Positions 35,110 to 48,786 of a DNA stretch of 64,000 nt are shown here, piece after piece (the stretch's first letter is position 1; each line of letters opens with the position of its first letter). The notes beneath the pieces were generated by a model that was given only the letters and a program-made list of their open reading frames with translations, ran no database searches and was not told the DNA's origin. The translations under genes and the position numbers were made by a program. This stretch comes from Polyangia bacterium (lineage in GTDB: Bacteria > Myxococcota_A > Polyangia > Palsa-1104 > JAEUJZ01), in assembly GCA_044228505.1 (NCBI GenBank), contig JBGAUT010000033.1:646-64645 (forward strand). Reading direction: 5' to 3'.

Positions 35110-36483
35110 ATGTCCGCTCATGTCCTAGTGGCCGACGATGAGGCCCTGATCCTTCAGTCCCTGCGCGGGGTGCTGCTTCAGGAGGGCTTCGAGGTCACGG
35201 CGGCCAGCTCGGGTGAGCAAGCCTGGCAGACCTTTGTGGCCACGCGACCCGATGTGGTGCTGCTCGACCTGGTGCTCGGCGACATCAGCGGCATCGAGGT
35301 GCTCCGCCGCATCCGCCAGCTCTCGCCCGAAACCAAGGTGATCCTGATCAGCGCCCACGCCACGCTGGAGCAAGCGGTCGAGGCGATGAAGCTTGGCGGC
35401 TACGACTTTATCCGCAAGCCGTTCGAGCTAGAGGAGATCGTCACCACCGTTCGCAACGCGGCGCGGACCAGCGAACTCGAAGGGCGCGTCGATTATCTGG
35501 CGCGGCGGGCCCGGCAGCAGCACGACAGCGGTGGACTGCTGTATTCCTCGGCGGTGATGGTCGGCAAGCTGCGGGAAATCGAGCTGATTGCGCGCAGCCC
35601 GGTGCAGACGGTGCTGATTCAGGGCGAGAGCGGGACCGGCAAGCAGCTGGTGGCGCAGCTCCTGCACGAGCGCTCGCCGCGACGCAGTGGCCCGTTTGTG
35701 GAGCTGAACTGCTCGACCCTTCCCGAGACGCTGGTCGAGAGCGAGCTGTTCGGTCATGAGCGCGGCGCGTTTTCCGATGCCCGTGAGCGCAAGCTCGGCC
35801 TGGTCGAGATTGCCGACACCGGGACGCTGTTTCTCGATGAGATTGGCGACTTGAGCCTCAGCGCGCAGGCCAAGCTTTTGACCTTTTTGGAGCAGCGGAC
35901 CTTTCGGCGGGTCGGTGCCACCGCGCTGCGCAAGGTCGACGTGCGGGTGGTTGCGGCCACCCATCGCGATCTGCGAGCGATGGCGGCCAGCAAAGAGTTT
36001 CGTGGCGACCTGTTGTTTCGCTTGAACGCGATGACGGTCGAGCTGCCACCGCTGCGCGAGCGACCCGACGACATCGTGCTGCTCGCCGAACACTTCCTGG
36101 TTACCGCAAACCACGAGTATCGCAAGACCTGGCAGGGGATTTCGACGGAGGCCAAGTCGCTGCTCACTGGCTATGGCTGGCCCGGCAACGTGCGCGAGCT
36201 GCGGGCGATGATCTCGCGGGCGGCGCTGCTCTACGACGATGCGCTGCTCAAACCAGAGCACCTTCCGGCAGAGCTTGCCCCGGTGCCGACACGTTTGCCA
36301 AGCAGTCCGGCCAGCCAGCCGACCGAGGGTCACATTGCCACCCTGGCCGAGGTCGAGCTAGCCCACATCCGTCGCGTACTCGCCCTGTGCGGCGGCAATC
36401 GAACCGTCGCCGCCCAGCACCTCGGCGTGACCCGGCAGACCTTGTCCCGTCGTTTGGAAGAATCAGGCCCGTCTTCGACCTGA
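35110..36483 (+). CDS. NtrC-family response regulator (REC-AAA+-HTH)
   Basis: VADDE, VLLDL (phospho-Asp), [41 protein letters not shown]. Confidence 0.93.
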
Positions 36484-36508
36484 GCGGTGGGCCATCCGCA
36501 GAGCGCGG

Positions 36509-39500
36509 TTAGCCGTTCATGCGGTAGTAGTACAGGGCTTTGTCCGCATTGATGATGGCGAGGTCGATCTGGCCCGGTCGCGACGAACATACGGCGGGTT
36601 TGCAGTTCATCGGCATCGGACCCAGCCGCTCCCACGGTAGCCAGCTTTCCCCCATCTTGCGGCGATGCCACAGGGCGCGGTCACTGCCCAGCGCAAACAC
36701 GTCAATGCGAGACGGGCCTACCGAGATCGCGACCGGATCGCTGCCGAGTGCGCCGGGATTGGCGCTGCCTTGACCGGCGAGCAGCGTCCAGCCGCCCCAC
36801 GCGTTGTTGCGGAAGCTGCGCGTCCACAGCTGGGTGTCGGTGCCGCGTGCGAACACGTCCAAGCAGCCCGCCTCGGTGGTGACCGCCGTAGGCTGACCGG
36901 ACAGACCGCCGCTTAGGAACTGCCAGCCCGACCACTTGCCGCCGGTGAAGGTGTTCTGATACAGGCACTGATCGAGCCCTCGGGCAAACAGGTCATAGCG
37001 AGTGTCCCGACAGACCGCCGCAGGCGGGTCGAGCAGTCCCCCGCCGAGCGAGATCCATCCGCTCCAGCCGTTGTCGGCGTAGCGGTGCCAGATCGCCTTG
37101 TCCGTGCCGAGGATGAAGATGTCCCAGCGACCGCGCCGTGGCGAGACCAGGACCGGGCTCCCTGCCGACTGGCCCCCGAGCGAAACCCAGCCGCCCGAGG
37201 TGCTGCCATCCCACCACTTCTGATAGATCGCGTTGTCGCGGCCTCGGCTGAGCACATCCAACCGGCCTGGGTACGGCGACAGCGAGACCTGATCGTTCAA
37301 AAAGACCCCACCGTGAGCGATCCAAGGGTGCCAGGTTCCGTCCGACCACATCTGATAGCTGCCGTCATCGAGTCCCTTGGCAAAGATGTCGAGCCGACCC
37401 GGTGCGAAGCTGGCGATCGTCGGGAGCGAGCTGAGTCCTCCGCCGAGCGCGGTCCACGGCGAGCTTTGACCCGGCGAAGCGAGGGTGAGCTTCCAGCGCT
37501 GGTTGTCGCCGCCGGTGTACGGCATCTGGAGCACGCGAGCCCCGCTGGCTGCACTGGCACTTTCAATGGTCAAGGCCAGGCCGCTGTGCTTGGCGGTGAT
37601 GACGTAGTAGCCGTCTCCGGTGGGGACGAGAGAGAAGCGCTGGTTGTCCCCGGTGTGCAGCGGCCACTGCAGCGCGATCGCCCCGCTTGCGGTCTGACCC
37701 CCGGCAATGTCGATGGCGCTGTTGGTCTGCCGGTTTTGCAGCGTGAACCAGCCACTTCCCGCGTGGGTGAGCGTCCACTTTTGATGGTCCGCTTTGATGA
37801 ATGACCCCTGGCACAGGCCGCGACCGTTGTCGGTGTAGCCGCAGGGAACCTCGAGCGCGTGGCCGCTGTGCTTGGCGACCAAGAACACCTGGCGACCGCT
37901 GAGCGTCGTCAGATCGTCTTCGACTTCCAGCACGGTCAGGTTGCAAAAGTTGACCAGCGCTCCCAGGTTGAGCGACGGCTGACCGGGAATCGGGAGCGTG
38001 GTGGTCGGTGGTTTGAAGCCCCCGATGGACGACTGGGGCACGCCGCCGCTGATTCCCAGGCTGCTCAGGCTGGCACCGCTTATCGCCGACCGCAAACGGA
38101 TGATCTGCGGCAGTACGGCGGGATCTCCCTCGACCTGCATCGTAAACAGCTCACGCGGGCCGACCTGGCTGCTCAGACATTGCAGCGCGGTATTGGACGA
38201 ATCGACGCTGACAAAGCGGCGACCTTGGGACCGCAGGGCAATCTGTCCGGTGCACAGCTCTTGTAGCTCAAAGGACTCCCAGCCGCCGACGCTGGCACCC
38301 GTCACAGTCACTGGCTCGGCGGGCGCTGGGGCGACTCCGTACAGCGCCGCGAGGCCACCGCCGTTGCGCGCTTGCAAGAACTTGCCACTTACCCCTCGGA
38401 GCACCACTTGCCGACGCCGCACCGGCCAATAAATCGGTCCGGTGGGGGACGACCAGACCATCTCGCCGGGTTCTTCCGGGGTACCGCGCAGCAGCATCGC
38501 CACGCCCAGGTTGGTGACCGCCAAGAAGCAGGGACCGGCGCTGCCATAGACATCGCTTTGCCACAGGATGGCACCAGCTTGGCTGGGATCGGCTCCGGCC
38601 CGCACCGCCAGCCGACCGTCCGAGGTCAGCGTCGCATGATAGGCAGCCGCCGCAGCGGGCGCGGGACTGCCCCACATCCAGTACGTGTTGGCTTCATCGC
38701 CCTGGATGACGCCTGGCTGGTCATAGGCGAGCCAAGTGGTTGGTGAGCTGAGCGGACCGCTGCCTCGGCGACGCATCAGCAGCCGTCCGCTGGGCGTGAG
38801 CAGGAGCGAAAACAGACCATTGGGGCTGCGCTTGCTCTCGCCCGCTCGCAGAAACTGTCCCGGTCGCAGCACCGAGCTGGCCGAGTCCGGCTGCGTCATC
38901 GGTCGGTCGAGCAGGAAGGTCGCGTCCGCCGCCGTTGCGCTTTCGGTGAGGTTGCCGCCCACGGTGGTGGCGCACAGGATCGGTGTCGGCGAGACGATGC
39001 CACCAAACACGCGGGTCGCTACGACAAAGCGGGGGTTTGCCACCGGGTCAGAGGCCACCGCCAGCGACACGCCAGTACCCGACAGCCCGCGCACCATTCG
39101 GAAGGTGGTGCCGCGCAGGTCGGTGTTCTTGTCGTACGGGATGAGCTTGATGTTGCCGTTTGCGTCGGCGCAGACGTACAGGGGCGGCTCTCCCACCACT
39201 TCGAGGGACACCATGGTGGGGTCGGTCAGGCCCGAGACGATGCAGATCGTCGGACGGTCTCCGGGGGTGCCGAGCCCCATCGTGCCTTGGCTGGTCCCGA
39301 CAAGCGCCACGCCAGCAGCAGTGCGGATGGTGCCGTAGTAGCGGGGCTTAAATGGCCCACTTGCGGCGGCCAGCGCGGTGGCCTGGATGCGGTCGGTGCT
39401 GCTGGGGTCGGCTTGGGCGCGCAAGGCGGCGTCAAAGTGGGTGGCATGTACCGACAGCCCGCCCACGACATCGTTCCAGCCTAGCTCGGTCAGGTTGGTC

Positions 39501-40456
39501 GCTTCGGTCCCGGCGGTCTGCACGAGGTTGCCGTTTGGCGAAGGGAGCGTCGTGCTCAGCTTCCACTTGAGGTTCTTTGGGTCGGGGGCCTGGTCGCGGG
39601 TCTTGCCAAACAAGCTGAAGTCGAGCGCCATCGCGTAGCGCAGCCCCAGAAACAGCGGCGGCATGCTCGCTTCCATCAGGACCACGCCGCCAATGTTTAC
39701 GCCGACGGCCTTGGTCGGGCTGGCCTCCATGCCCAGGCCAAATTTGATCGCCTTGGCCTTGCTGGCCCGCGACACCGGACCAAACACCATCGTGACTTGT
39801 GCGGACACAGACGGCGTCAGCACTCCTGGTGCGGCCAGCTTCTGGATGATGTTGTCCTTGGTCGGCAGCTCCGGGCCCGCGAAAAAGCCCCAGCCATCGC
39901 CGCAGACATACACGCCGATGCTGATGGGGATGACCAGCCTGATGGTGATTCCGAAGGTGATCACCGATCCGGCGGCACTGGCGGCGGACTGGAGCCCTCC
40001 GGCCACGGCCTCGGTGAGCAGGTACCCGGCGAGCTCCTGGGCGCGGGCGTCAATTGGCCCCAGCTCCGGCAGCGTTTCATAAAAGAAGCTGGCGAGCTGC
40101 TGGTAGACCCAGACCATCCCGGCCTCGACGGCGCTGCGGGCCACATTGAAGTTATTGACCGTGAAGCTGGCGACGTCTCCGGCGGCTTGCTCGGTCCAGG
40201 CCCGGACATCGGCAAACGAGGTCTTGCTCCAGCTAATGGCATCGCCGGTGGCGGTGATGCCCCACTTTTCGATCCCGGTGCCCGCAGTGACAACGCCATC
40301 GCCAATGAACGACGCGCCATCGACAATTCCATCGCCGACGATCTCGGCGACTGCCATCGCGTCGCGGGCGACTTTTTCCGCCTGATCTGCGACAGCATTG
40401 GCGGCATCGACAAAGGGATCGCCCCAGCTAGAGGGGTTGGTAATGCTAAAGCCCAT
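36509..40456 (-). CDS. 1315-aa multi-lectin protein (AbfB/CBM42-like, bulb-type, fascin-like, ricin-B, PLL-like 7-blade propeller)
   Basis: Ricin QxW-type repeats (HQKWTL, NQRFSL, NQRWKL); bulb lectin LRPGQFL..SPNGLFSLLL; seven W..LGG..P......RLDIFARG.D blades at the C-terminus. Confidence 0.75.
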   Translation of the reverse strand: MGFSITNPSSWGDPFVDAANAVADQAEKVARDAMAVAEIVGDGIVDGASFIGDGVVTAGTGIEKWGITATGDAISWSKTSFADVRAWTEQAAGDVASFTVNNFNVARSAVEAGMVWVYQQLASFFYETLPELGPIDARAQELAGYLLTEAVAGGLQSAASAAGSVITFGITIRLVIPISIGVYVCGDGWGFFAGPELPTKDNIIQKLAAPGVLTPSVSAQVTMVFGPVSRASKAKAIKFGLGMEASPTKAVGVNIGGVVLMEASMPPLFLGLRYAMALDFSLFGKTRDQAPDPKNLKWKLSTTLPSPNGNLVQTAGTEATNLTELGWNDVVGGLSVHATHFDAALRAQADPSSTDRIQATALAAASGPFKPRYYGTIRTAAGVALVGTSQGTMGLGTPGDRPTICIVSGLTDPTMVSLEVVGEPPLYVCADANGNIKLIPYDKNTDLRGTTFRMVRGLSGTGVSLAVASDPVANPRFVVATRVFGGIVSPTPILCATTVGGNLTESATAADATFLLDRPMTQPDSASSVLRPGQFLRAGESKRSPNGLFSLLLTPSGRLLMRRRGSGPLSSPTTWLAYDQPGVIQGDEANTYWMWGSPAPAAAAAYHATLTSDGRLAVRAGADPSQAGAILWQSDVYGSAGPCFLAVTNLGVAMLLRGTPEEPGEMVWSSPTGPIYWPVRRRQVVLRGVSGKFLQARNGGGLAALYGVAPAPAEPVTVTGASVGGWESFELQELCTGQIALRSQGRRFVSVDSSNTALQCLSSQVGPRELFTMQVEGDPAVLPQIIRLRSAISGASLSSLGISGGVPQSSIGGFKPPTTTLPIPGQPSLNLGALVNFCNLTVLEVEDDLTTLSGRQVFLVAKHSGHALEVPCGYTDNGRGLCQGSFIKADHQKWTLTHAGSGWFTLQNRQTNSAIDIAGGQTASGAIALQWPLHTGDNQRFSLVPTGDGYYVITAKHSGLALTIESASAASGARVLQMPYTGGDNQRWKLTLASPGQSSPWTALGGGLSSLPTIASFAPGRLDIFAKGLDDGSYQMWSDGTWHPWIAHGGVFLNDQVSLSPYPGRLDVLSRGRDNAIYQKWWDGSTSGGWVSLGGQSAGSPVLVSPRRGRWDIFILGTDKAIWHRYADNGWSGWISLGGGLLDPPAAVCRDTRYDLFARGLDQCLYQNTFTGGKWSGWQFLSGGLSGQPTAVTTEAGCLDVFARGTDTQLWTRSFRNNAWGGWTLLAGQGSANPGALGSDPVAISVGPSRIDVFALGSDRALWHRRKMGESWLPWERLGPMPMNCKPAVCSSRPGQIDLAIINADKALYYYRMNG

Positions 40457-40642
40457 CCGGGAACTCCTGTTTGTGGCAAGCAGCGGTCGCTGCGTGTCCG
40501 AAACGTGGCGGATGCAGGCTCTCAGTCACGCACAAGCAGACCCCCTGGAGTGGTGACCCAAGCCCTCCGCACAGAAGGTTATTTTGGCCTACCTCTCAGC
40601 CGTGCGCAGCACCATTTTGAAGCTGCGGTGGCGCTGGTGACG

Positions 40643-41060
40643 ACGGCCAGTGACCCACGCGGTCCCCACAAACGCTCGGATCCGGCGGCCACCGGCACCG
40701 AAATTCGACCAAAGAGCGCGGGACGAGCAGCCGCCCCCTGTTTGAACTTTCCATTCCCTCACGGAGAGCGCAGCCAACCTCCCTGGTTCGTTTTTGGCCC
40801 TGGGCTGGCGGAGCAGCCGCACCGCTTTTGCATCCAATTGTGTTGGCTGCCCCAACGGCCACCCGGTTTTTGCGCGTTTTTGCGCGGGCCACCGCAGCAG
40901 CCGGGCCCTTTTGAAACATTTTGCAGCGCCTGGCCGCGCAGCCGCCCCCTGTTTGAACTTTTTGTCCGGGCCAGGAAGCTGCCGGAGCACGCTGTGATTT
41001 TGCATTCGCGTGATCCAGCGGAGCAGCCACCCCCCCAAAACATTTCACAACCCCCCCGGC
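40643..41060. repeat. Non-coding degenerate tandem array with ~42-bp period
   Basis: RC(A/G/T)GCC hexamers at 40643, 40685, 40727, 40770, 40813, 40855, 40897, 40938, 40978 and 41023; exact 24-bp duplicate GCAGCCGCCCCCTGTTTGAACTTT at 40727-40750 and 40938-40961. Confidence 0.65.
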
Positions 41061-41163
41061 AGCGCTTCCCGCATGAATGGGGAGATTTTCGCGCTTTAGG
41101 GCCCAAAACCCCGCGCAGCCACCCCAACCCCTGGCCGTTCGGGCTGGGCTGCCGGGCTACGGA

Positions 41164-41703
41164 TTACGAAAGATTCGGACTTCGCGGCAGGTTCCGCACC
41201 GTGATGCCAAACCTGTTTTGAAGCTGGTCGCCATTACCGACCCAGGCATGGGCTTGATCCAGCCAGCGGATGCGACCCTTGAGCTGATCGGTCAACGAGA
41301 GCAGCGCAATCTGCGCACGATCTTTTGGCAAAAAAGAATGCTCGATCAGTGCCAAGACGCGGATCGACTGGCTACTATCAGCTAACTTTTGGGCATAACG
41401 CTCATAGCTGGAGATCTGTTTGCGGAAGTGGCCAGCGAGTAGTCCCGCCACGGTGGCAACGACCTTTTTGCCAATCGAGCGAGAGAGCTCGCCGCTCGTG
41501 ATCTTTTCGCGGTTTTGGCTGGAGTAGCCGCGAAAGTCTTTGACCTCGATGAGCAGGAGCTGATCTTGCGGACTGATGGCCACAAAGTCGACCGCTTCAT
41601 GCTCACCTAGATGCTGGGTGCGGAAGTTGTCTTCATCGTAGTGAAGCACTTCCCAGCCATCCGGAAATAGCAATTTCTGATCTTGCTCTTGGAAGGTCGG
41701 CAC
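41164..41703 (-). CDS. Small protein with PD-(D/E)xK nuclease-like motif
   Basis: AVDFVAISPQDQLLLIEVKDFRG (D-x11-E-x-K); 5 bp downstream of the ATPase gene. Confidence 0.65.
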   Translation of the reverse strand: MPTFQEQDQKLLFPDGWEVLHYDEDNFRTQHLGEHEAVDFVAISPQDQLLLIEVKDFRGYSSQNREKITSGELSRSIGKKVVATVAGLLAGHFRKQISSYERYAQKLADSSQSIRVLALIEHSFLPKDRAQIALLSLTDQLKGRIRWLDQAHAWVGNGDQLQNRFGITVRNLPRSPNLS

Positions 41704-41708
41704 GGCTG

Positions 41709-42381
41709 CTATTCCTGGTTGGCGGCAGATGTACCGGCAAACAGTCGGGCTTCGCGGTCGTAGTGGGCGGCGAACTCTTCGACGATTGGGTTGTGCTGAA
41801 GATCAGCCAATACCGCGCCGCTTTCGACCGTGACCGGATCGGTGCTCTGCTCTTTGTTCAAGCAGAAGAAGCGGACCAAATCACGATCGGCACCGTATTC
41901 GGACACCAGCGACAGCTCGCGGCACAGCAGATAGTCGTGGGTGGCAATGAATACTTGCACCCCGGCCTTGGCGAGCCCGATCAGAAAGTCCTTCATCACC
42001 ACGACCAGCTTCGGGTTCATGTTCGCCTCGGGCTCATCCCAAAACAAACAGCCGCCCGGCTCGATCGAGCCATTCGCAATCAACTGCAAAATCTGAGCAA
42101 ACTTCCGCAGCCCCTCGGCTTCCAAGTGGATGTCTAGCTCGCCATCGTCCCGCTCAATCACAAAGCCATTGCCCTTCAGGACGACCTGACCCCCAAGTAC
42201 AGCTTCCAGCGGCTTCGCCAGGTCTGCAAATATTGGTGGCACCTCACGCAGTAGTGGTCCCGAGAGCAATCTGCATAAATCATAATAAGTGCGATCAAAA
42301 GGAAGCCGATATTTGACGTACAGTTCGACAAATCCGGAATACATCGACAATACTTCGCGAGGAGGAATGTACAACGCCGGG
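41709..42381 (-). pseudogene. 3' part of IS-interrupted ABC/AAA (AAA_15/AAA_21-like) ATPase
   Basis: YIPPREVLS, signature-like EAEGLRK, Walker B LFWDEPE, H-loop IATHD. Confidence 0.88.
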
Positions 42382-43733
42382 GGTTCATCCGAGTATTCCG
42401 TGGGCAGCGGACAGAACTGTGGAAAGCGCGCTCATGTAGAGAAGTGATTTGATACGATATGGAGGCTCTGTAGTGTACGGGGATGCGCGATACGGAGCTG
42501 TACTTTCACTTGTTGGGACTGGTAAAGCCGTGGACGGTAGGGAACGTCGAGCTGTCGATTCCGAATCGGCGTGTCGATGTCGCGGTAGAGCATCCGGTGG
42601 GACTTTTGTGGCGCTGTCCGCAGTGTACCTTTGAGGGTTCTCTGTACGATCACAGCGACGAGCGGACATGGCGACATCTCGATAGCTGCCAGTTCCTAAC
42701 GTATCTGCGGGCACGGATTCCGCGCATCAAATGTCCGACGCACGGAGTACTCCAGGTGTCTGTCCCGTGGGCTGAACCGCACAGCCGATTCACACTCCTG
42801 TTTGAGCGGCTTGCCGTCGAGATCTTGCTGCAAAGCACGGTGCAAGGTGCGGCCCAGATCTTGGGACTGAGTTGGTTTGAGGTGATGCATTTGATGGAGC
42901 GAGCGGTGGCGCGAGGACAGAAAAAGGAGTCCGCTGCGCAGCTCCCAAAGACCATCGGTATCGACGAGAAATATACTCCTTGTGGCGTGCTGACGCTGGT
43001 CAACGACCTAGACACTCCGCGTGTGGCCAAGGTGCTGGTTGGAGTCAAGAAGGAGCCACTAAAGGAGTATCTTGGGAGCTTTCCGGAACCACAGAGGGAG
43101 TCCGTTCGCGCCGTCGCTCTCGACATGTGCGATACGTTCTATGCAGCCATCGCCGAGGTGATTCCGGAATCGTGGAACAAGATTGTCTACGACCGCTTTC
43201 ATGTCATGCAGCACGTCAGCAAAGCCGTCGAGAAAGTACGCAAACAGGAGCATGCATACTTGCTCCGCACAAGCGACCAGAGGCTAACAGGAACCCGCTT
43301 TCTGTGGAGCTACAGCGACGAAAATCTACCAGAACACAGGCGTGAGCAACTAGAGAAACTCAAAGCCGACAAGCTTGTGACTGGGCGGGCCTGGGCGCTC
43401 AAGGAATTCCTACGCACACTCTGGAATTGCCCCAGTCGCTCGACGGCAATAGAGGTCTGGAACAAGTGGTATTGCTGGGCGCAGCGCAGCCGTCTGGAAC
43501 CGATGAAAGATGTCGCACGACGACTCCGCGCACGGCTGTACAACATCCTCACCTTCATCGAGCACCGCATTACCAACGCCGCAAGTGAGGGCCTCAACAG
43601 CGCCATCTCCACACTCATCCGCCGCGCCTACGGATACCGCAACCTGCAAAACCAAATTACCGCCATTTACTTCTACCATGGCGGCCTCAACCTTTTGCCG
43701 GAGCCAGTGACCCACGGAGAACTGGGATGAACC
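42382..43733 (+). mobile_element. ISL3-family insertion sequence, 1,352 bp
   Basis: Left IR GGTTCATCCGAGTATTCCGTGGG (42382-42404) versus the reverse complement of the right end GGTTCATCCCAGTTCTCCGTGGG (43711-43733): 20/23 identical; 8-bp TSD ACGCCGGG at 42374-42381 and 43734-43741. Confidence 0.95.
42483..43730 (+). CDS. ISL3-family transposase
   Basis: Zn finger [38 protein letters not shown]. Confidence 0.95.
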
Positions 43734-44205
43734 ACGCCGGGCCAGTGAGTTGTTCTTTTTGGGGAATGTTTGATAATGAAGTTGTTAGGTCAGTCAGCGC
43801 TAGGGTAAATGGAAATATGGCAGAGCGTAGAAATATGGATAGCAATGTGTCTGAATTTTCATTGGTTGATTTTCTGCGACTCCGTTTTTTGAAAGAACTG
43901 TAGTCGACTGTAAAGGTTGTGCTGAATACGCCAGACAAAAATGCGAGTATTGCGATAGTTTCTGGAGGGATGGATGGAGATGATTTGTGGACCTCTTTGG
44001 CTCGGCTCAGCAAAGATTGGCCGTGCCCATAGTCGATATCCAAATGGGCTCGGCGGCAGCCTTCGGTGAGTCCGTAGAGGGCTTTGAGGACGTGGGTCTT
44101 GCCGGTGCCGTTTTTGCCGATGAGGACGTTTACGCCGGGGCTGAAGGTGAACTCGGCGTGGTCAAAGACGGTGAAGTTCTCGAAGCGGGCGCTGCGGATG
44201 GACAT
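43734..44205 (-). pseudogene. 5' part of IS-interrupted ABC/AAA ATPase
   Basis: [35 protein letters not shown] (Walker A); rejoins 42373 in frame (..QLTGPA-LYIPPRE..). Confidence 0.88.
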
Positions 44206-44305
44206 GGGAACCTGGACCACCTGGGGAAAGTGGTTGGCATCGTGACCAGGGCGGTTGATGGTGTCAAGAACTGCGCCGGGCAGGTGGGCGGCTTGGGCAG
44301 CCGGG

Positions 44306-44935
44306 TTACTCCAGGGCGCGGAGGCGGGCTAGGTCGGCGGCGGAGGAGAGCTGGACGTCGAGGTCGCGGATTCGGCCATCGCTGAGGTCGTAGATCCAGC
44401 CGTGAACGGTGACGGGCTGGTTGCGGGCCCAGGCGGCTTCAAGGACGGTGGTCTCGGCGACGTTTAAGACTTGGTCGATGACGTTTAGCTCGCACAGGCG
44501 GGCGGCGCGGGCGTCGTCGTTTGGGAGCGCGCTGAGCTCGTGCTTGTGGTGGCGGGCAATGTCTTGGATGTGCCGGAGCCAGTTTTCGATGAGCCCGAGC
44601 GGCTTGGCATCGAGGGCGGCGCGCACCCCACCGCAGCCGTAGTGGCCGCAGACGATGATGTTGCGGATTTCCAGAACCTCGACGGCGTACTGAAGCACCG
44701 ACAGCATGTTGAGGTCGGTGTGGATGACCAAGTTGGCGACGTTGCGGTGGACGAACACGTCCCCTGGGGATAGGCCGGTGATTTGGTTGGCGGGAACGCG
44801 GCTGTCGGCGCAGCCAATCCACAGGTAGTGCGGTGACTGCTGGTGTGCGAGGCGGTCGAAGCACTCGGGATCACGCTCGACCATTTCTTTGGCCCATTGC
44901 TGATTCTGATCGAGCAAGTGCTGTAGCGAAGACAT
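44306..44935 (-). CDS. can: Beta-class carbonic anhydrase
   Basis: [34 protein letters not shown]. Confidence 0.95.
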
Positions 44936-45080
44936 GGTGTCCACCCCCCATCACAGAGCATAGCCAATGCGGCGGCTCACCGGGACGGCGGCGGATAGAG
45001 ACCAGAAACGATGAAGGAAACCGATTCCGGCGCGGCTGGGGCCTATTTTTCAGCCGGGCGGAGCCTGGTTTCGGTCCAGG

Positions 45081-46328
45081 TCAGAGCTGAAGCTGTCCTT
45101 GCAAGGTGAGTCCGTGCGAGGCGGTGGAGGGCACGGTGGCATCGCTGCTGCTGGTGTTGCCGTAGGCGTAGCGAAGCAGCAGCTTGAGATGGTTGCCGCG
45201 AGCGTAATAGACGAGCAGGGCTTCGGCCTGGGACTTGATGACGGCGTTCGTCTGGACATTGGCGTCGATGACATCGCCCCGGGCGGCGAGCTGTAGGTAG
45301 CGCCGATAGACAAAACAACCACCGTGGAGGTAGCCGCCAGCCGCCCACACCGTGGTGCCGCCGGAGAGCTGTTGCCAGCGGGCGTAGCCTTCGCTCTGAA
45401 GCACGCACGCGCCTCGGCTGAGGGCTAGGTCGAGACCGACGGTGGCATAGGGGGCAATCTCGGCCTGCGCGGTCGGCAGCGCTCCGGCATCGAGCGGCAG
45501 GTCATGCCGTCCATAGGTCCCGTTGATGCCGATGGAAAACTGCGGCTGCGTATCGTCGAACTGCGGCGTCTCGGTGTAGACCGGCTTGCCGCGCAGGTTG
45601 GCCGCGAGCCGGGCAATCGCCATGATTCGTCCGCCGCCAGGGACTTGATTGATGCCGTTGCCGTTAAAGACGCCCGCGTAGTACTCCAGGTGGCCGTCGG
45701 CTGGCATGCCGAACACCATCGCTCCGAGATCGCGGTTGTCGCGGAAGAACACGTTCGAGGGCGCAAAGTCGGGGAACAGCAGCCGGAACGGCGGCACCAG
45801 AAACTCACGGGAAAACGGCGTGAGAAACTGCCCGACCCGTACCCCAATGGCGGGATGGGGCTGAATCGTGATCTCGGCATCGAGCAGGGTGGCGCTCCGA
45901 CCGGCCAGCTCGGGCTGGACAAAGTACTGAATCCACGGACGCAGTAGCTTTCCGCGCAGCACCGGTCGCGCCATGGCCACCTTAAATTCCGGGACTCGGA
46001 CGGTGTCGGCGATGACCTCATCGAGGCGAATCTGCGTAAAGAAGTGCAGCTCGGCCGAAAAAGATGCATCAGCCGTAGAGACGCCGACGCCCCGATCCAA
46101 AGAGGCAAAAAAGATCGGACCGCTTGCGTCCGGTGGCGGCGGAGCGGGCGGAGGTGCGGGCGGTGTGGGGACCACGGGAGTCGGCGGTGGGGCAGGTGTC
46201 TGCTCCGGTTGCGGACTCGCGGGATCGGATGCCGAAACCGGGACAGTTGCCGTGGACGGACTCTGCGCCGGCAGGTCCGTCACCGCAGCCTGCGTGAGTA
46301 GAGACAGACAGATTAGGCTCGACAGCAT
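45081..46328 (-). CDS. Outer-membrane porin (phosphate-selective porin O/P-like)
   Basis: Signal peptide, Pro-rich linker, RVGQFLTPFSRE, RDLGAM, YAGVFNGNG, terminal beta strand LTLQGQLQL. Confidence 0.75.
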   Translation of the reverse strand: MLSSLICLSLLTQAAVTDLPAQSPSTATVPVSASDPASPQPEQTPAPPPTPVVPTPPAPPPAPPPPDASGPIFFASLDRGVGVSTADASFSAELHFFTQIRLDEVIADTVRVPEFKVAMARPVLRGKLLRPWIQYFVQPELAGRSATLLDAEITIQPHPAIGVRVGQFLTPFSREFLVPPFRLLFPDFAPSNVFFRDNRDLGAMVFGMPADGHLEYYAGVFNGNGINQVPGGGRIMAIARLAANLRGKPVYTETPQFDDTQPQFSIGINGTYGRHDLPLDAGALPTAQAEIAPYATVGLDLALSRGACVLQSEGYARWQQLSGGTTVWAAGGYLHGGCFVYRRYLQLAARGDVIDANVQTNAVIKSQAEALLVYYARGNHLKLLLRYAYGNTSSSDATVPSTASHGLTLQGQLQL

Positions 46329-46348
46329 GGAGTGCCCCGATGCCTGCG

Positions 46349-47965
46349 CTAGTGGGTGGAAGGGCTGACGGTCATGGGTTTGCGGCGGGCCGCTAACTCG
46401 TGGGAGGCGAGCGGAGTGTGATCGTGAAGGCCAATGATCTGCAGCGTGCGTCCCTCGCGCCGCCAGTCATCGGCCATGTGGCGTAGCTTTTCAATCACGG
46501 TGTGATCGACAAGTCGAGTCGCGTTTAGGTCCAGCAGCAGCTTGGTGATGCTGGTCGGAATCGAGTCGAGCCGTCGCTTGAGAGACAGGTAGTTACTAAA
46601 CACCGCCGCATCGTACACTCTGAGCCGCAGCGTGGTGTCGTCGAGTTCTTCTTGTTCGATGCGGCTTGCAAACAGGCCCCGCAGGGGCGCGCCGTGACGC
46701 AGGTGGAGCAGCATCTTGAGCACCACACCGGCCCCGACTCCGATCAGCAGATCGGTTGCCAGCGTGACCAGCAGGGTGGTCACAAACAGCAGGAGCTGCT
46801 CATGGCCGATGCGGAACACGCGCACAAACTCGGCAGGGGAGGCCAGCCGAATGCCAGTGTAGATGAGCATGGCCCCGAGCGCGGCCAAGGGGATTTTCTG
46901 AAGCAGACCGGGAAGCAGTGCCACCATCAGGAGCAAAAACAGGCCGTGGAAGAAGTTGGCGTAGCGGCTTTTGGCTCCGTTATTGATGTTGGCCGAGCTG
47001 CGGACAATCTCGGAGATCATTGGCAAGCCGCCGAGCAGACCGGCGACCACGTTGCCGACGCCGGTGGCAAACAGATCGCGGTTTAGGTCGCTGTGGCGAT
47101 GCTGGGGATCGAGCGCATCGACGGCCTTGGCGCTGAGCAGTGACTCGAGCGAACCGACCAAGGTGAACATCACGATGTACTTGATGGAAATCCAACTGAG
47201 CAGGTGCGAAAAGTCGGGCCACGAGTGGGACTGAGCGAGGCTGCCGGGAAGCTGAACCAGATACTGCGGACCGACCTTGTAGTGATGCAGATGGAAGTCA
47301 TAGGTGTGCTCGTGGCTTAGATCGAGGAACATGCCGAGCGGCACGGTGATGAGCAACACCACCATCGGTGCGGGAACTTTCTTGGCCCAGGAAAACGGGA
47401 GCTTGGGAATCCCAAACAGGAGCACCAGGCTGAGGATGCCGATGAGGGCGACCTCGGGGTTCATGTTGGCCAGGCTGTGCGGAATTTCAGCGAGGAGTTT
47501 GAGCGGCTCGCGGGCACTCGGAGCTACGCCAAGCGCCGTGTGAGTCTGTTTGGAAACGATGATGACGCCAATGGCGGCGAGCATTCCGTGCACGACCGCC
47601 GAGGGAAAAAAGTCGCCAAGCTCTCCGGCACGCAGACGGGACAACAGAACTTGCAGGACTCCGGCGATGACGACCACGGCGATGGTGCGGTGATAGCCAG
47701 CAACGGCGTCACCCGCGCCGAGCTCTTGGACGGCCCCAAGCGCGATGACGATCAGACCGGCGGCGGGGCCCTTGATCGTAAGTTCCGCGCTGCCGACAAA
47801 CGTGGCAATCAGGCCTCCGACCACCGCAGTGACAACACCGGTGACCGGGGGGAAGTTGCTGGCCATCGCGATTCCCAGACACAGCGGGAGGGCGATGAGA
47901 AACACGAGAAAGCCAGACACAAGGTCGGCCTTCAAATCTGGTGTGTAGGTAGCTTGGCGGCTCAT
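46349..47965 (-). CDS. SulP-family anion (bicarbonate/sulfate) transporter with STAS-like tail
   Basis: DLVSGFLVFLIALPLCLGIAMAS, GPAAGL, GMLAAIG, GLPMISEIVRSSAN. Confidence 0.92.
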   Translation of the reverse strand: MSRQATYTPDLKADLVSGFLVFLIALPLCLGIAMASNFPPVTGVVTAVVGGLIATFVGSAELTIKGPAAGLIVIALGAVQELGAGDAVAGYHRTIAVVVIAGVLQVLLSRLRAGELGDFFPSAVVHGMLAAIGVIIVSKQTHTALGVAPSAREPLKLLAEIPHSLANMNPEVALIGILSLVLLFGIPKLPFSWAKKVPAPMVVLLITVPLGMFLDLSHEHTYDFHLHHYKVGPQYLVQLPGSLAQSHSWPDFSHLLSWISIKYIVMFTLVGSLESLLSAKAVDALDPQHRHSDLNRDLFATGVGNVVAGLLGGLPMISEIVRSSANINNGAKSRYANFFHGLFLLLMVALLPGLLQKIPLAALGAMLIYTGIRLASPAEFVRVFRIGHEQLLLFVTTLLVTLATDLLIGVGAGVVLKMLLHLRHGAPLRGLFASRIEQEELDDTTLRLRVYDAAVFSNYLSLKRRLDSIPTSITKLLLDLNATRLVDHTVIEKLRHMADDWRREGRTLQIIGLHDHTPLASHELAARRKPMTVSPSTH

Positions 47966-48168
47966 GGCAGCATCCTCCGGTGCGAAGACGTCGTTCTTGC
48001 CGGGATGACATTGCCAGCGCTGTGCCAGGGCCGAGGATGCACGCCGTTCGCGCATCGCCGTCGAACACACCGCATCTGGGGGCGTGGTTGTGCAATCGGA
48101 CGGATCCGGTGCCGTTAAGAAATCGAACGGCGGTCGGTCCAGATGGTCGATTCTGTAACGTCGGCGAT

Positions 48169-48786
48169 CTACCAGCGCAACGAATAGACCGCAGAGTTAT
48201 ACGGCGCGGTGAGACTTACATCGGGGGGAGAGACGGTTCCCCGGATGCCGAGGAATCCGAAGATGGCACCGAGTCCTCCCGCAACCGACACAAACACACA
48301 GTAGGGGACGAGGGAACAGCGGGAATAGCGCACCGTCATCCGTCCGGACTTTGGGCCCAGCACGACATAGTCGTACTCGACCCCGCGGACGGAGGTGCTA
48401 CCGATCTGCCCCATTCGCTCAAAGATCGTTGTGGGGGACGTGCCAAACAGTCGCAGCATGCCCTCGGCCATGGCGCGTAGCACCGTGGTGCCGGCAACCT
48501 CTGAGGTTTCCCGACTACAGCGAGCACAGATATCCGAGCCGCGCAGATCAAAAATTGCGGCATCCAGTTCAACGATGGCCTGTCCGGGAACCCAGTTCGA
48601 TGACGGCGGCGGTTCATCCATCAGCTTGCGCGTGGCGTCTGAAACCAGACCTCGCAACTCACGAAGTGGCACGTGTGCGGCAGCGGCCCGCAGGCGTCCA
48701 TTCCATACGGTGCCTTTGATCTCGAACTGGAGGCTGGCTTGCTTTACCAGTTCAACCTGCGTGGACATCGACTGTTCACTGCCCAT
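48169..48786 (-). CDS. Hypothetical protein
   Basis: 205-aa ORF filling the gap between SulP and the lipoprotein genes; no motif I can name with confidence. Confidence 0.6.
   Translation of the reverse strand: MGSEQSMSTQVELVKQASLQFEIKGTVWNGRLRAAAAHVPLRELRGLVSDATRKLMDEPPPSSNWVPGQAIVELDAAIFDLRGSDICARCSRETSEVAGTTVLRAMAEGMLRLFGTSPTTIFERMGQIGSTSVRGVEYDYVVLGPKSGRMTVRYSRCSLVPYCVFVSVAGGLGAIFGFLGIRGTVSPPDVSLTAPYNSAVYSLRW

What the first reader, a model, noticed from the sequence alone, without database searches (positions are those of the whole stretch)
41164..44205. Two-gene ABC-ATPase + PD-(D/E)xK-like nuclease module: candidate anti-phage or abortive-infection system
Removing the IS and one TSD copy restores a 378-aa ATPase (472+665 nt) with Walker [25 protein letters not shown], Walker B FWDEPE and H-loop ATHD. 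It is followed 5 bp later by a 179-aa protein with D-x11-E-x-K. Established knowledge: ABC-ATPase sensors paired with small nuclease effectors form Septu (HNH), PARIS (TOPRIM), AbiL/RloB-type and Gabija-like defences. The partner here looks like a restriction-endonuclease-fold protein rather than HNH or TOPRIM, so it may be a distinct, possibly undescribed type; I cannot confirm novelty without a search. The module has lower GC than its flanks and sits between unrelated genes, consistent with horizontal acquisition.
Basis: partly seen in the sequence, partly recalled or inferred. Interest (0 to 1): 0.72.

Follow-up and report, generated by a model that had tools for sequence, protein, structure and literature searches.

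The report
IS-broken HEC-02 phage-defence gene pair
This is a copy of HEC-02, a two-gene anti-phage system (ABC ATPase plus small nuclease) already catalogued and tested in the lab, and here a jumping gene has split its ATPase gene, so it is real but not a new kind of system.

Summary
On the minus strand, a 1,352-bp ISL3-family insertion sequence splits a 378-aa ABC ATPase gene at codon 157/158. The element has 23-bp inverted repeats and an 8-bp target duplication, ACGCCGGG. A 179-aa protein with D39-x13-E53-x-K55 follows 5 bp after the ATPase stop codon.

The pair is not an undescribed type. The rejoined ATPase matches PADLOC HEC-02A (E 1.6e-86, full length) and the partner matches HEC-02B (E 8e-16). 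HEC-02 is an ABC ATPase plus a NERD-like PD-(D/E)xK nuclease. Payne et al. (bioRxiv 10.1101/2024.01.29.577857) showed that it protects E. coli and needs both genes. This copy is therefore predicted to be inactive.

- Close relatives carry intact 378-aa orthologues, without the IS, at the same site.
- 74 of 80 distant loci keep the same two-gene arrangement.
- The same genome holds a second, intact, divergent HEC-02.

New here:
- The site after the carbonic anhydrase gene is variable within the genus. It is empty in two species and holds other defence-like genes in two others.
- ATPase residues 51-157 (roughly "Insert 1") are a low-GC hypervariable segment, 40-73% nt identical between alleles whose remaining sequence is 88-95% identical.

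Interest is low.

The parts
43734..44205 (-). HEC-02A ABC ATPase, N-terminal fragment (codons 1-157 plus one base). It carries Walker A, GKNGTGKT, at residues 30-37.
   Evidence: PADLOC HEC-02A match on the rejoined protein. Alignment to intact orthologues.
43735..44055 (-). Hypervariable low-GC segment of the ATPase (residues 51-157, roughly 'Insert 1' of the ABC fold).
   Evidence: It is 69-73% nt identical among three alleles (about 40% to a fourth), where the rest of the gene is 88-95% identical. GC is 0.43-0.48 against 0.55-0.56. dN is 0.27-0.32 against 0.01. A fifth distinct allele is in L115. The model shows helices, a disordered loop and beta strands between helix 1 and the core.
43734..43741 (.). 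Target-site duplication, copy 1 (ACGCCGGG).
42382..43733 (+). ISL3-family insertion sequence, 1,352 bp, with 23-nt terminal inverted repeats at 42382-42404 and 43711-43733.
   Evidence: It is the only full copy in the genome assembly.
42483..43730 (+). ISL3 transposase gene, 415 aa, intact.
   Evidence: Pfam DDE_Tnp_ISL3 2.9e-59, HTH_Tnp_ISL3 and Zn_ribbon_ISL3. NCBIfam NF033550 5.3e-84.
42374..42381 (.). Target-site duplication, copy 2 (ACGCCGGG).
41709..42373 (-). HEC-02A ABC ATPase, C-terminal fragment (residues 158-378). It carries the EAEGLRK signature, Walker B FWDEPE and H-loop ATHD.
41164..41703 (-). HEC-02B, a 179-aa NERD/DUF6661-like PD-(D/E)xK nuclease. It is intact and retains D23, D39, E53, K55 and K80.
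   Evidence: PADLOC HEC-02B 8.4e-16. Motif conservation in 79-83 partners. AF2 model with pLDDT 93.7. Pfam scan of the family.

Best explanation
The locus is a member of the HEC-02 anti-phage system: an ABC ATPase (HEC-02A) followed by a small NERD/DUF6661-type PD-(D/E)xK nuclease (HEC-02B). A recent ISL3-family insertion at codon 157/158 has broken the ATPase gene.

Shown here:
- Family membership of both proteins.
- The conserved two-gene operon across many phyla.
- Intact catalytic motifs in both proteins.
- The clean insertion with its target duplication.
- Intact IS-free orthologues at the same chromosomal site in close relatives.

Taken from the literature (Payne et al. 2024): HEC-02 protects E. 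coli against phages and needs both genes.

Inferred:
- The ATPase acts as the infection sensor or regulator. It is an SMC/Rad50/PtuA-like head without a coiled coil. Its variable Insert 1 would be the recognition surface.
- The ATPase controls the nuclease effector, which cuts nucleic acid once infection is sensed. This follows the logic of Septu PtuAB, its closest solved structural relative.
- The IS separates Walker A from the signature motif, Walker B and the H-loop, so no functional ATPase can be made. This copy should therefore give no defence.
- The insertion is recent. It is the only lesion, and the conserved part still shows dN/dS of about 0.04.

A second, divergent and intact HEC-02 elsewhere in the genome (contig C51) remains.
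For: - PADLOC: ATPase to HEC-02A PDLC04213, E 1.6e-86, model positions 1-331 of 337. Partner to HEC-02B PDLC04228, E 8.4e-16, and PDLC04145, E 4.5e-14.
- Literature description and validation of HEC-02.
- Intact 378-aa orthologues at 87% identity, aligned across the junction without a gap.
- Same synteny (porin, carbonic anhydrase, ATPase, partner, lectin) without the IS in L001, L002, L004, L105 and L106. Empty-site alignment.
- 74 of 80 loci from many phyla have the partner directly downstream on the same strand. One of the six exceptions ends at a contig edge.
- D39 and E53 are invariant; K55, K80, D23 and F13 are at least 90% conserved.
- Walker A, signature, Walker B and H-loop residues are invariant in 16 and in 98 homologues.
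- The ATPase model (pLDDT 89.8) is closest to Septu PtuA (8eea, 8sux, 8ee4; E about 5e-13, TM about 0.5), then retron PtuA and SMC/Rad50 heads.
- dN/dS of the conserved part, window against L001, is 0.04. Between the intact alleles L001 and L105 it is 0.05.
- A second HEC-02 lies at G000:C51.
Against: - No experiment exists on this copy or its lineage.
- Identity to the tested representative is not known here. The match is at HMM level only.
- The partner's Pfam NERD score (20.1 bits) is below the gathering cut-off (22.1).
- Foldseek against the PDB gives only non-significant hits (best E 0.027). Assignment of the nuclease fold therefore rests on the motif, the secondary-structure order and the literature.
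- The mechanism (what is sensed, what is cut, the role of ATP) is unknown even for the tested HEC-02.
Confidence: 0.9

Rival explanations
1. The pair is a toxin-antitoxin or addiction-type module (the Pfam AAA_21 entry is labelled 'putative AbiEii toxin') or a mobile-element stabiliser, not a dedicated phage-defence system. On this view the IS knocked out a regulator of a toxic nuclease.
For: Pfam AAA_21 match, 5.5e-15. One divergent relative sits next to a phage-type integrase (L108). The nuclease gene is left intact after loss of the ATPase.
Against: If the ATPase were an antitoxin, breaking it should be lethal or should select for nuclease loss. The nuclease keeps all conserved residues. 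Payne et al. report phage protection that needs both genes. In this lineage the pair is chromosomal and syntenic, not on an obvious mobile element.
Confidence: 0.05
2. It is a housekeeping DNA-repair pair, with a RecF/Rad50/SbcC-like ATPase and a nuclease, not an immune system.
For: NCBIfam gives weak N-terminal matches to RecF and Rad50 (2e-8 to 3e-7, far below the cut-offs). Structural similarity to SMC/Rad50 heads.
Against: The matches cover only the Walker A region. The ATPase has no coiled coil. The pair is absent from the seven other species representatives of the genus. It has low GC and sits at a site that carries other defence-like genes in sister species. It has a hypervariable segment. 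The tested HEC-02 protects against phage.
Confidence: 0.03
3. The IS interruption is an assembly artefact or a minority allele, and the organism's real locus is intact and functional.
For: The genome is a 106-contig draft. Only one full IS copy is assembled. All other sampled alleles are intact.
Against: A perfect 8-bp target duplication flanked by proper inverted repeats is the signature of real transposition, not mis-joining. The IS lies inside a long contig, with 96%-identical collinear sequence on both sides.
Confidence: 0.07

Closest known systems
HEC-02 (Hma-embedded candidate 02; PADLOC-DB v2; Payne et al., bioRxiv 10.1101/2024.01.29.577857)
   Same: Both proteins match the system's HMMs. 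The architecture is the same: an ABC ATPase of about 340-380 aa directly followed by a NERD-like nuclease of about 170-200 aa carrying D...ExK. The ATPase shows the ABC fold in a structure prediction.
   Different: An ISL3 element splits the ATPase. The pair is not embedded in an Hma system but sits between a carbonic anhydrase gene and a lectin gene. This clade's ATPase is about 36 residues longer than the PADLOC model, and the extra length lies in a hypervariable low-GC Insert 1.
Septu (PtuA ABC ATPase + PtuB HNH nuclease; PDB 8eea, 8sux, 8ee4)
   Same: It is the closest solved structure to the ATPase (Foldseek E about 5e-13, TM about 0.5). The logic is the same two-gene ATPase-plus-nuclease arrangement.
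   Different: The partner is a PD-(D/E)xK/NERD-type protein, not HNH. PADLOC PtuA models match only the Walker A region (E about 1e-10, residues 1-43).
PARIS (AriA/AriB), Gabija (GajA/GajB), AbiL, PD-T4-4
   Same: They have related AAA_15/AAA_21-type ABC ATPases (AriA 7.7e-18, AbiLi 1.1e-12, PD-T4-4_A 2.8e-12, GajA about 1e-11). Sensor-plus-effector logic is proposed for them.
   Different: Their scores are 70 orders of magnitude weaker than HEC-02A. Their effectors are TOPRIM/DUF4435 or helicase-type proteins, not NERD.
Pfam DUF6661 / NERD (PF20366 / PF08378), PD-(D/E)xK superfamily
   Same: 24 of 79 partner homologues hit DUF6661 (best 6.5e-103) and 14 of 79 hit NERD. The D...ExK motif and the order of helices and strands fit the restriction-endonuclease-like core.
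   Different: The window's own protein is below the cut-off for both families (NERD 20.1 against 22.1 bits; DUF6661 17.3 against 27). Its similarity to solved structures is not significant.
ISL3-family insertion sequences
   Same: The transposase has a zinc ribbon, an HTH and a DDE_Tnp_ISL3 domain. The element is about 1.35 kb, with terminal inverted repeats and an 8-bp target duplication.
   Different: Nothing unusual. It is a single full copy in this draft genome, with only diverged relatives elsewhere (76% nt on contig C18).

Membership tests
HEC-02 | HEC-02A-type ABC ATPase matching the PADLOC HEC-02A model over its full length | tested here: met
   PDLC04213, E 1.6e-86, protein residues 1-367 to model positions 1-331 of 337, on the IS-free reconstruction. 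In place, the two fragments match model positions 1-88 and 119-331.
HEC-02 | HEC-02B NERD-like partner matching a PADLOC HEC-02B model | tested here: met
   PDLC04228, E 8.4e-16 (residues 5-159 to model positions 4-186 of 199). PDLC04145, E 4.5e-14.
HEC-02 | The two genes are adjacent on one strand as an operon | tested here: met
   A 5-bp gap separates them. The same arrangement is found in 74 of 80 distant loci.
HEC-02 | ATPase motifs (Walker A, signature, Walker B, H-loop) and nuclease D...(D/E/Q)xK present | tested here: met
   G30, N32, G35, K36, A243-E244-G245, R247, K248, D270, E271 and H303 are invariant in 16 homologues; in the 98-homologue alignment G30, N32, G35, K36, G245, D270, E271 and H303 stay invariant and A243, E244, R247 and K248 are at least 90% conserved. 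D39 and E53 are invariant, and K55 is 98% conserved.
HEC-02 | Both genes intact (both are required for defence) | tested here: not met
   The IS interrupts the ATPase gene at codon 157/158. The requirement for both genes comes from Payne et al.. This copy is a disrupted member, not a non-member.
HEC-02 | Confers phage resistance | not testable with these tools
   Only the literature result for another representative is available.
PD-(D/E)xK / NERD nuclease fold (partner) | Restriction-endonuclease-like alpha-beta-beta-beta-alpha-beta core, with the acidic residue at the start of one strand and ExK in the next | tested here: inconclusive
   - The AF2 model (pLDDT 93.7) places D39 just before strand 40-43 and E53/K55 in strand 49-56.
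- Foldseek hits to PD-(D/E)xK nucleases are weak only: Mus81 E 0.027, BstEII probability 0.85, plus HamA, FokI and EcoO109I. None reaches E <= 0.001.
- Pfam NERD scores E 9e-4 and 20.1 bits, below the 22.1 cut-off.
Septu | HNH nuclease partner (PtuB) | tested here: not met
   The partner has no HNH match. It matches HEC-02B, NERD and DUF6661.
PARIS / Gabija / OLD-type | TOPRIM (or DUF4435) effector domain | tested here: not met
   Neither protein has a TOPRIM match.
ISL3 insertion sequence | ISL3 DDE transposase, terminal inverted repeats, 8-bp target duplication | tested here: met

The most novel reading that the evidence does not exclude
Within what looks like one species-level clade (flanks 95-97% nt identical), HEC-02A carries a swappable, low-GC hypervariable Insert 1 (residues 51-157).

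Observations behind this reading:
- All five sampled lineages with locus DNA (window, L001 group, L105 group, L107, L115) carry a different Insert 1 allele.
- dN is about 30 times higher and dS about 2.7 times higher than in the rest of the gene.
- The segment varies independently of the nuclease's own variable C-terminus.

The reading is that Insert 1 is the phage-recognition surface, kept diverse by balancing or diversifying selection and by recombination among alleles. If so, the natural alleles would form a ready-made specificity series for testing what HEC-02 senses.
Probability: 0.4. Interest if true: 0.4.

Novelty: new member of a known kind. Interest (0 to 1): 0.2.

Why it matters
As a system type it adds nothing new. 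HEC-02 is already in PADLOC and has been tested experimentally.

The locus is a tidy natural example of three things.
- A defence system inactivated by an IS, while a second HEC-02 paralogue in the same genome stays intact.
- A chromosomal integration site, just after a carbonic anhydrase gene, that holds different defence-like cargo in sister species.
- Very local hypervariability in the ATPase insert that Payne et al. proposed as the specificity determinant.

The third point gives a simple experimental handle: swap the natural Insert 1 alleles and test phage specificity. This bears on the still-unknown trigger of HEC-02.

Tried and rejected
- **Diversity-generating retroelement as the cause of Insert 1 variation.** Rejected. 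The 6.8-Mb assembly holds no second copy (template repeat) of the segment, even with blastn at word size 7.
- **Co-variation between ATPase Insert 1 and the partner's variable C-terminus (a cognate interface).** Not supported. In L115 the partner's C-terminal residues 121-179 are identical to the window's (P0121, 97% identical overall), yet Insert 1 differs.
- **Positive selection with dN/dS above 1 in Insert 1.** Not found. dN/dS is 0.45-0.51. It is raised about tenfold over the rest of the gene, and dS is raised too, which points to old or recombined alleles.
- **RNA elements in or around the locus.** No Rfam match in 36000-48500 at E <= 0.1.
- **Promoter and terminator scans.** No more sites than in shuffled sequence.
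- **Sequence search of the partner profile against the PDB.** Nothing relevant.
- **Link between the 42-bp-period arrays next to the two HEC-02 loci of this genome.** The neighbouring proteins are unrelated and the repeat units differ. Treated as a separate matter.
- **Truncated gene calls.** L003's 211-aa call and P0006's 255-aa call looked like further truncated copies. They are gene-calling artefacts over the low-GC insert; the frame is intact in L003.
- **Organism name.** Not obtained. The cluster look-up returned no names for the close relatives.
Full report
**1. The observation**

- An ORF fragment starts at ATG 44205. It carries Walker A (GKNGTGKT) and runs into foreign sequence after 43734.
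- A second fragment, 42373-41709, carries YIPPREVLS, EAEGLRK, FWDEPE and ATHD.
- A 179-aa ORF (41703-41164, GTG start) begins 5 bp after the ATPase stop codon.

Between the two ATPase fragments lies a 1,352-bp element (42382-43733).
- It has 23-nt terminal inverted repeats, GGTTCATCC..., that are 87% complementary.
- Perfect 8-bp direct repeats, ACGCCGGG, flank it.
- Its 415-aa ORF on the plus strand is an ISL3 transposase. Pfam gives Zn_ribbon_ISL3, HTH_Tnp_ISL3 and DDE_Tnp_ISL3 (2.9e-59). NCBIfam gives NF033550 at 5.3e-84, above its cut-off.

Removing the IS and one repeat copy gives 472+665 = 1,137 nt, an open 378-aa frame. GC is 0.50-0.55 in the module against 0.62-0.67 in the flanks.

**2. 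The reconstruction is the real ancestral gene**

A protein search found intact proteins of exactly 378 aa at 87% identity and 100% coverage (P0001, P0002). They align across the junction (...EQLTGPA|LYIPPREV...) without a gap.

Contigs from other samples and one genome assembly (L001, GCA_964267885.1; also L002, L004, L105, L106) show the same gene order. That order is (SulP), porin, beta-carbonic anhydrase, 378-aa ATPase, 179/180-aa partner, 1,315-aa ricin-lectin/beta-propeller protein. None of them has the IS. A DNA alignment of the two window junctions with L001 shows the empty site.

The flanks are 95-97% nt identical to L001. The IS is the only lesion in the gene. The conserved half still shows dN/dS of 0.04 against L001, and two intact alleles compared with each other show 0.05. 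The insertion is therefore recent. Only one full copy of the IS is in the 106-contig assembly; diverged relatives (76% nt) are on contig C18.

**3. What it is**

Against PADLOC-DB v2 the rejoined ATPase matches HEC-02A (PDLC04213) at E 1.6e-86 over the full model. The partner matches HEC-02B (PDLC04228) at 8.4e-16 and PDLC04145 at 4.5e-14. Models for AriA, AbiLi, PD-T4-4, GajA and PtuA match only at 1e-10 to 1e-18, mostly over the Walker A region. Some PADLOC models carry swapped A/B labels: PDLC04146 'HEC-02B' hits the ATPase and PDLC04145 'HEC-02A' hits the small protein. This probably reflects sub-types with the opposite gene order.

HEC-02 is described in Payne et al. (bioRxiv 10.1101/2024.01.29.577857). 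It is an ABC ATPase plus a NERD-domain PD-(D/E)xK protein. [quoted passage not shown] It reduced plaquing of at least two coliphages by orders of magnitude in E. coli, and both genes were required.

**4. Independent checks of membership**

- *Conserved gene pair.* A scan of one genome per species returned at least 414 relatives of the ATPase in many phyla, including Myxococcota, Planctomycetota, Verrucomicrobiota, Bacteroidota, Firmicutes, Cyanobacteria, Chloroflexota and Proteobacteria. In 74 of the best 80 loci, an iteratively built profile of the partner finds it directly downstream on the same strand. Of the six exceptions, one ends at a contig edge and five have other downstream genes.
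- *Nuclease motif.* Across 79-83 partners, D39 and E53 are invariant. K55, K80, D23 and F13 are at least 90% conserved. The window's protein keeps all of them.
- *Partner fold.* An AF2 model of the partner is confident (pLDDT 93.7, pTM 0.90). D39 heads one strand and E53-x-K55 lies in the next. Foldseek against the PDB gives only non-significant hits. They are enriched in PD-(D/E)xK nucleases: Mus81 E 0.027, BstEII probability 0.85, plus HamA, FokI and EcoO109I.
- *Partner families.* Pfam assigns 24 of 79 partners to DUF6661 (best 6.5e-103) and 14 of 79 weakly to NERD. The window's own protein is sub-threshold for both. I therefore rate the nuclease fold as consistent but not independently proven here.
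- *ATPase fold.* The rejoined protein is not accepted by the structure tool, so I modelled the 87%-identical intact orthologue P0001 (pLDDT 89.8). Its closest solved structures are Septu PtuA (8eea, 8sux, 8ee4; E about 5e-13, TM about 0.5), then retron-associated PtuA, then SMC and Rad50 heads. This agrees with Payne et al.'s assignment to the ABC clade.

**5. How it most likely works, and its state here**

- Shown here: the two families, the operon and the intact motifs.
- From the literature: defence needs both genes.
- Inferred: the ATPase is the sensor or regulator and the nuclease is the effector. This is proposed by Payne et al. From my own knowledge, it parallels Septu, PARIS and Gabija.

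The IS leaves Walker A on a fragment of about 157 aa. The signature, Walker B and H-loop are on a separate 221-aa fragment. No functional ATPase can be made, so this copy is predicted to be inactive. The nuclease gene is untouched, which argues against it being a free-standing toxin. The same genome has a second, intact, divergent HEC-02 on contig C51. There the ATPase matches PDLC04214 at 2.3e-120 and the partner matches PDLC04224 at 2.1e-32. The two partners are barely alignable to each other.

**6. Context and acquisition**

None of the seven other species representatives of the genus has a strong HEC-02A match (best E 1e-6 to 3e-9, which are generic ABC hits). The state of the site after the carbonic anhydrase gene differs between species.

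| Genome | Carbonic anhydrase identity to window | What lies after the carbonic anhydrase gene |
|---|---|---|
| G005, G006 | about 80% aa | Directly abuts the sigma-54 response-regulator gene, whose window orthologue is at 35110-36474 (84% aa) |
| Window lineage | (query itself) | About 8 kb in that gap: HEC-02, a 0.7-kb spacer and the lectin gene |
| G003 | 97% aa | A different ABC ATPase (PD-T4-4_A-like, 6.8e-37; AAA_15/AAA_21) plus a 207-aa protein, on the opposite strand |
| G007 | 79% aa | A C5 DNA methyltransferase (MTase_II, 1.4e-83), an overlapping 351-aa ORF, and another ABC ATPase with a 232-aa partner (weak HEC-01B match) |

This supports horizontal acquisition at a variable site that repeatedly receives defence-type cargo. 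Within 10 kb of the window's module no other defence gene is evident from Pfam labels.

**7. A local hypervariable segment**

A sliding comparison with L001 shows two dips in an otherwise 93-99% identical region. One is in ATPase residues about 55-155 (down to 64% nt). The other is in partner residues about 121-175 (73%).

Identity and substitution rates by ATPase segment, compared among the window, the L001 group and the L105 group:

| ATPase segment | nt identity | dN | dS | dN/dS |
|---|---|---|---|---|
| Residues 1-50 | 93-99% | 0-0.022 | 0.06-0.30 | 0-0.10 |
| Residues 51-157 (Insert 1) | 69-73% | 0.27-0.32 | 0.58-0.65 | 0.45-0.51 |
| Residues 158-378 | 94-95% | about 0.01 | 0.18-0.26 | 0.04-0.05 |

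- Against the more distant fourth allele, L107, the three segments are 95-96%, about 40% and 88-89% identical.
- GC is 0.43-0.48 in residues 51-157 against 0.55-0.56 in the rest of the gene.
- A fifth allele (L115) has yet another insert, although its partner is 97% identical to the window's and has the same C-terminus. The two variable regions therefore do not co-vary.
- The genome holds no template copy of the segment, so a diversity-generating retroelement is excluded.
- The raised dS points to old alleles exchanged by recombination, not to recent point mutation.
- The segment corresponds roughly to 'Insert 1', which Payne et al. propose as a specificity determinant. The IS sits exactly at its 3' boundary, which I treat as coincidence.

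**8. Verdict**

This is a new, IS-disrupted member of a known and tested system. Earlier notes of this scan reached the same conclusion for the C51 copy and for many HEC-02 pairs in other genomes. I re-derived the C51 result independently. Interest is low. The hypervariable insert and the variable integration site are the only points worth a follow-up.

Noticed in passing
G000:C51:38045-39064 (locus L096: ATPase 1492-2520 -, partner 862-1485 -): The same genome holds a second, intact and strongly divergent HEC-02 pair. The ATPase matches PDLC04214 at 2.3e-120 and the partner matches PDLC04224 at 2.1e-32.
   Followed up: yes
window 35110-44944; loci L110 (G003), L111 (G005), L112 (G007), L114 (G006): The gap between the carbonic anhydrase gene and the sigma-54 response-regulator gene varies within the genus. 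It is empty in two species. It holds HEC-02 plus the lectin gene here, a PD-T4-4-like ABC ATPase pair in G003, and a C5 methyltransferase plus another ABC ATPase pair in G007.
   Followed up: partly
window 43735-44055 (-) and 41167-41343 (-): Two segments are hypervariable among near-identical relatives: ATPase Insert 1 and the C-terminus of the partner. All five sampled lineages with locus DNA have a distinct Insert 1, and its GC is only 0.43-0.48.
   Followed up: yes
window 46424-48163 vs L001 6361-6727: The SulP sulfate-permease gene (46349-48070) present in the window and in L105 is almost entirely missing from the otherwise collinear relative L001. Only short remnants (57 and 138 bp) align.
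   Followed up: no
window 40643-41060 and L096 2608-2817: Both HEC-02 loci of this genome abut a non-coding array with a period of about 42 bp. The array here is degenerate and lies upstream of the lectin gene. The one on C51 is a clean 42-bp tandem upstream of a 280-aa gene. The units and the neighbouring proteins are unrelated. TRF does not detect the window array.
   Followed up: partly
P0019 (Logan contig, 2,083 bp): A 95%-identical allele of the ATPase C-terminal half carries a frameshift and reads on into the partner region. This is either another decayed copy or an assembly error.
   Followed up: no
L003 1325-1960; P0006: Gene callers truncate intact HEC-02A genes at the low-GC insert, giving 211- and 255-aa calls. 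Translation of L003:824-1960 shows the full 378-aa frame is open.
   Followed up: yes
L108 100-1287 (-): A 64%-identical HEC-02 pair (P0005) lies next to a phage-type integrase gene, which suggests carriage on an integrative element in that lineage.
   Followed up: no
G000:C18:339013-340287 and C9:155461-155656: Diverged relatives (71-76% nt) and fragments (81-88% nt) of the ISL3 element occur elsewhere in the genome. There is no second identical copy.
   Followed up: partly
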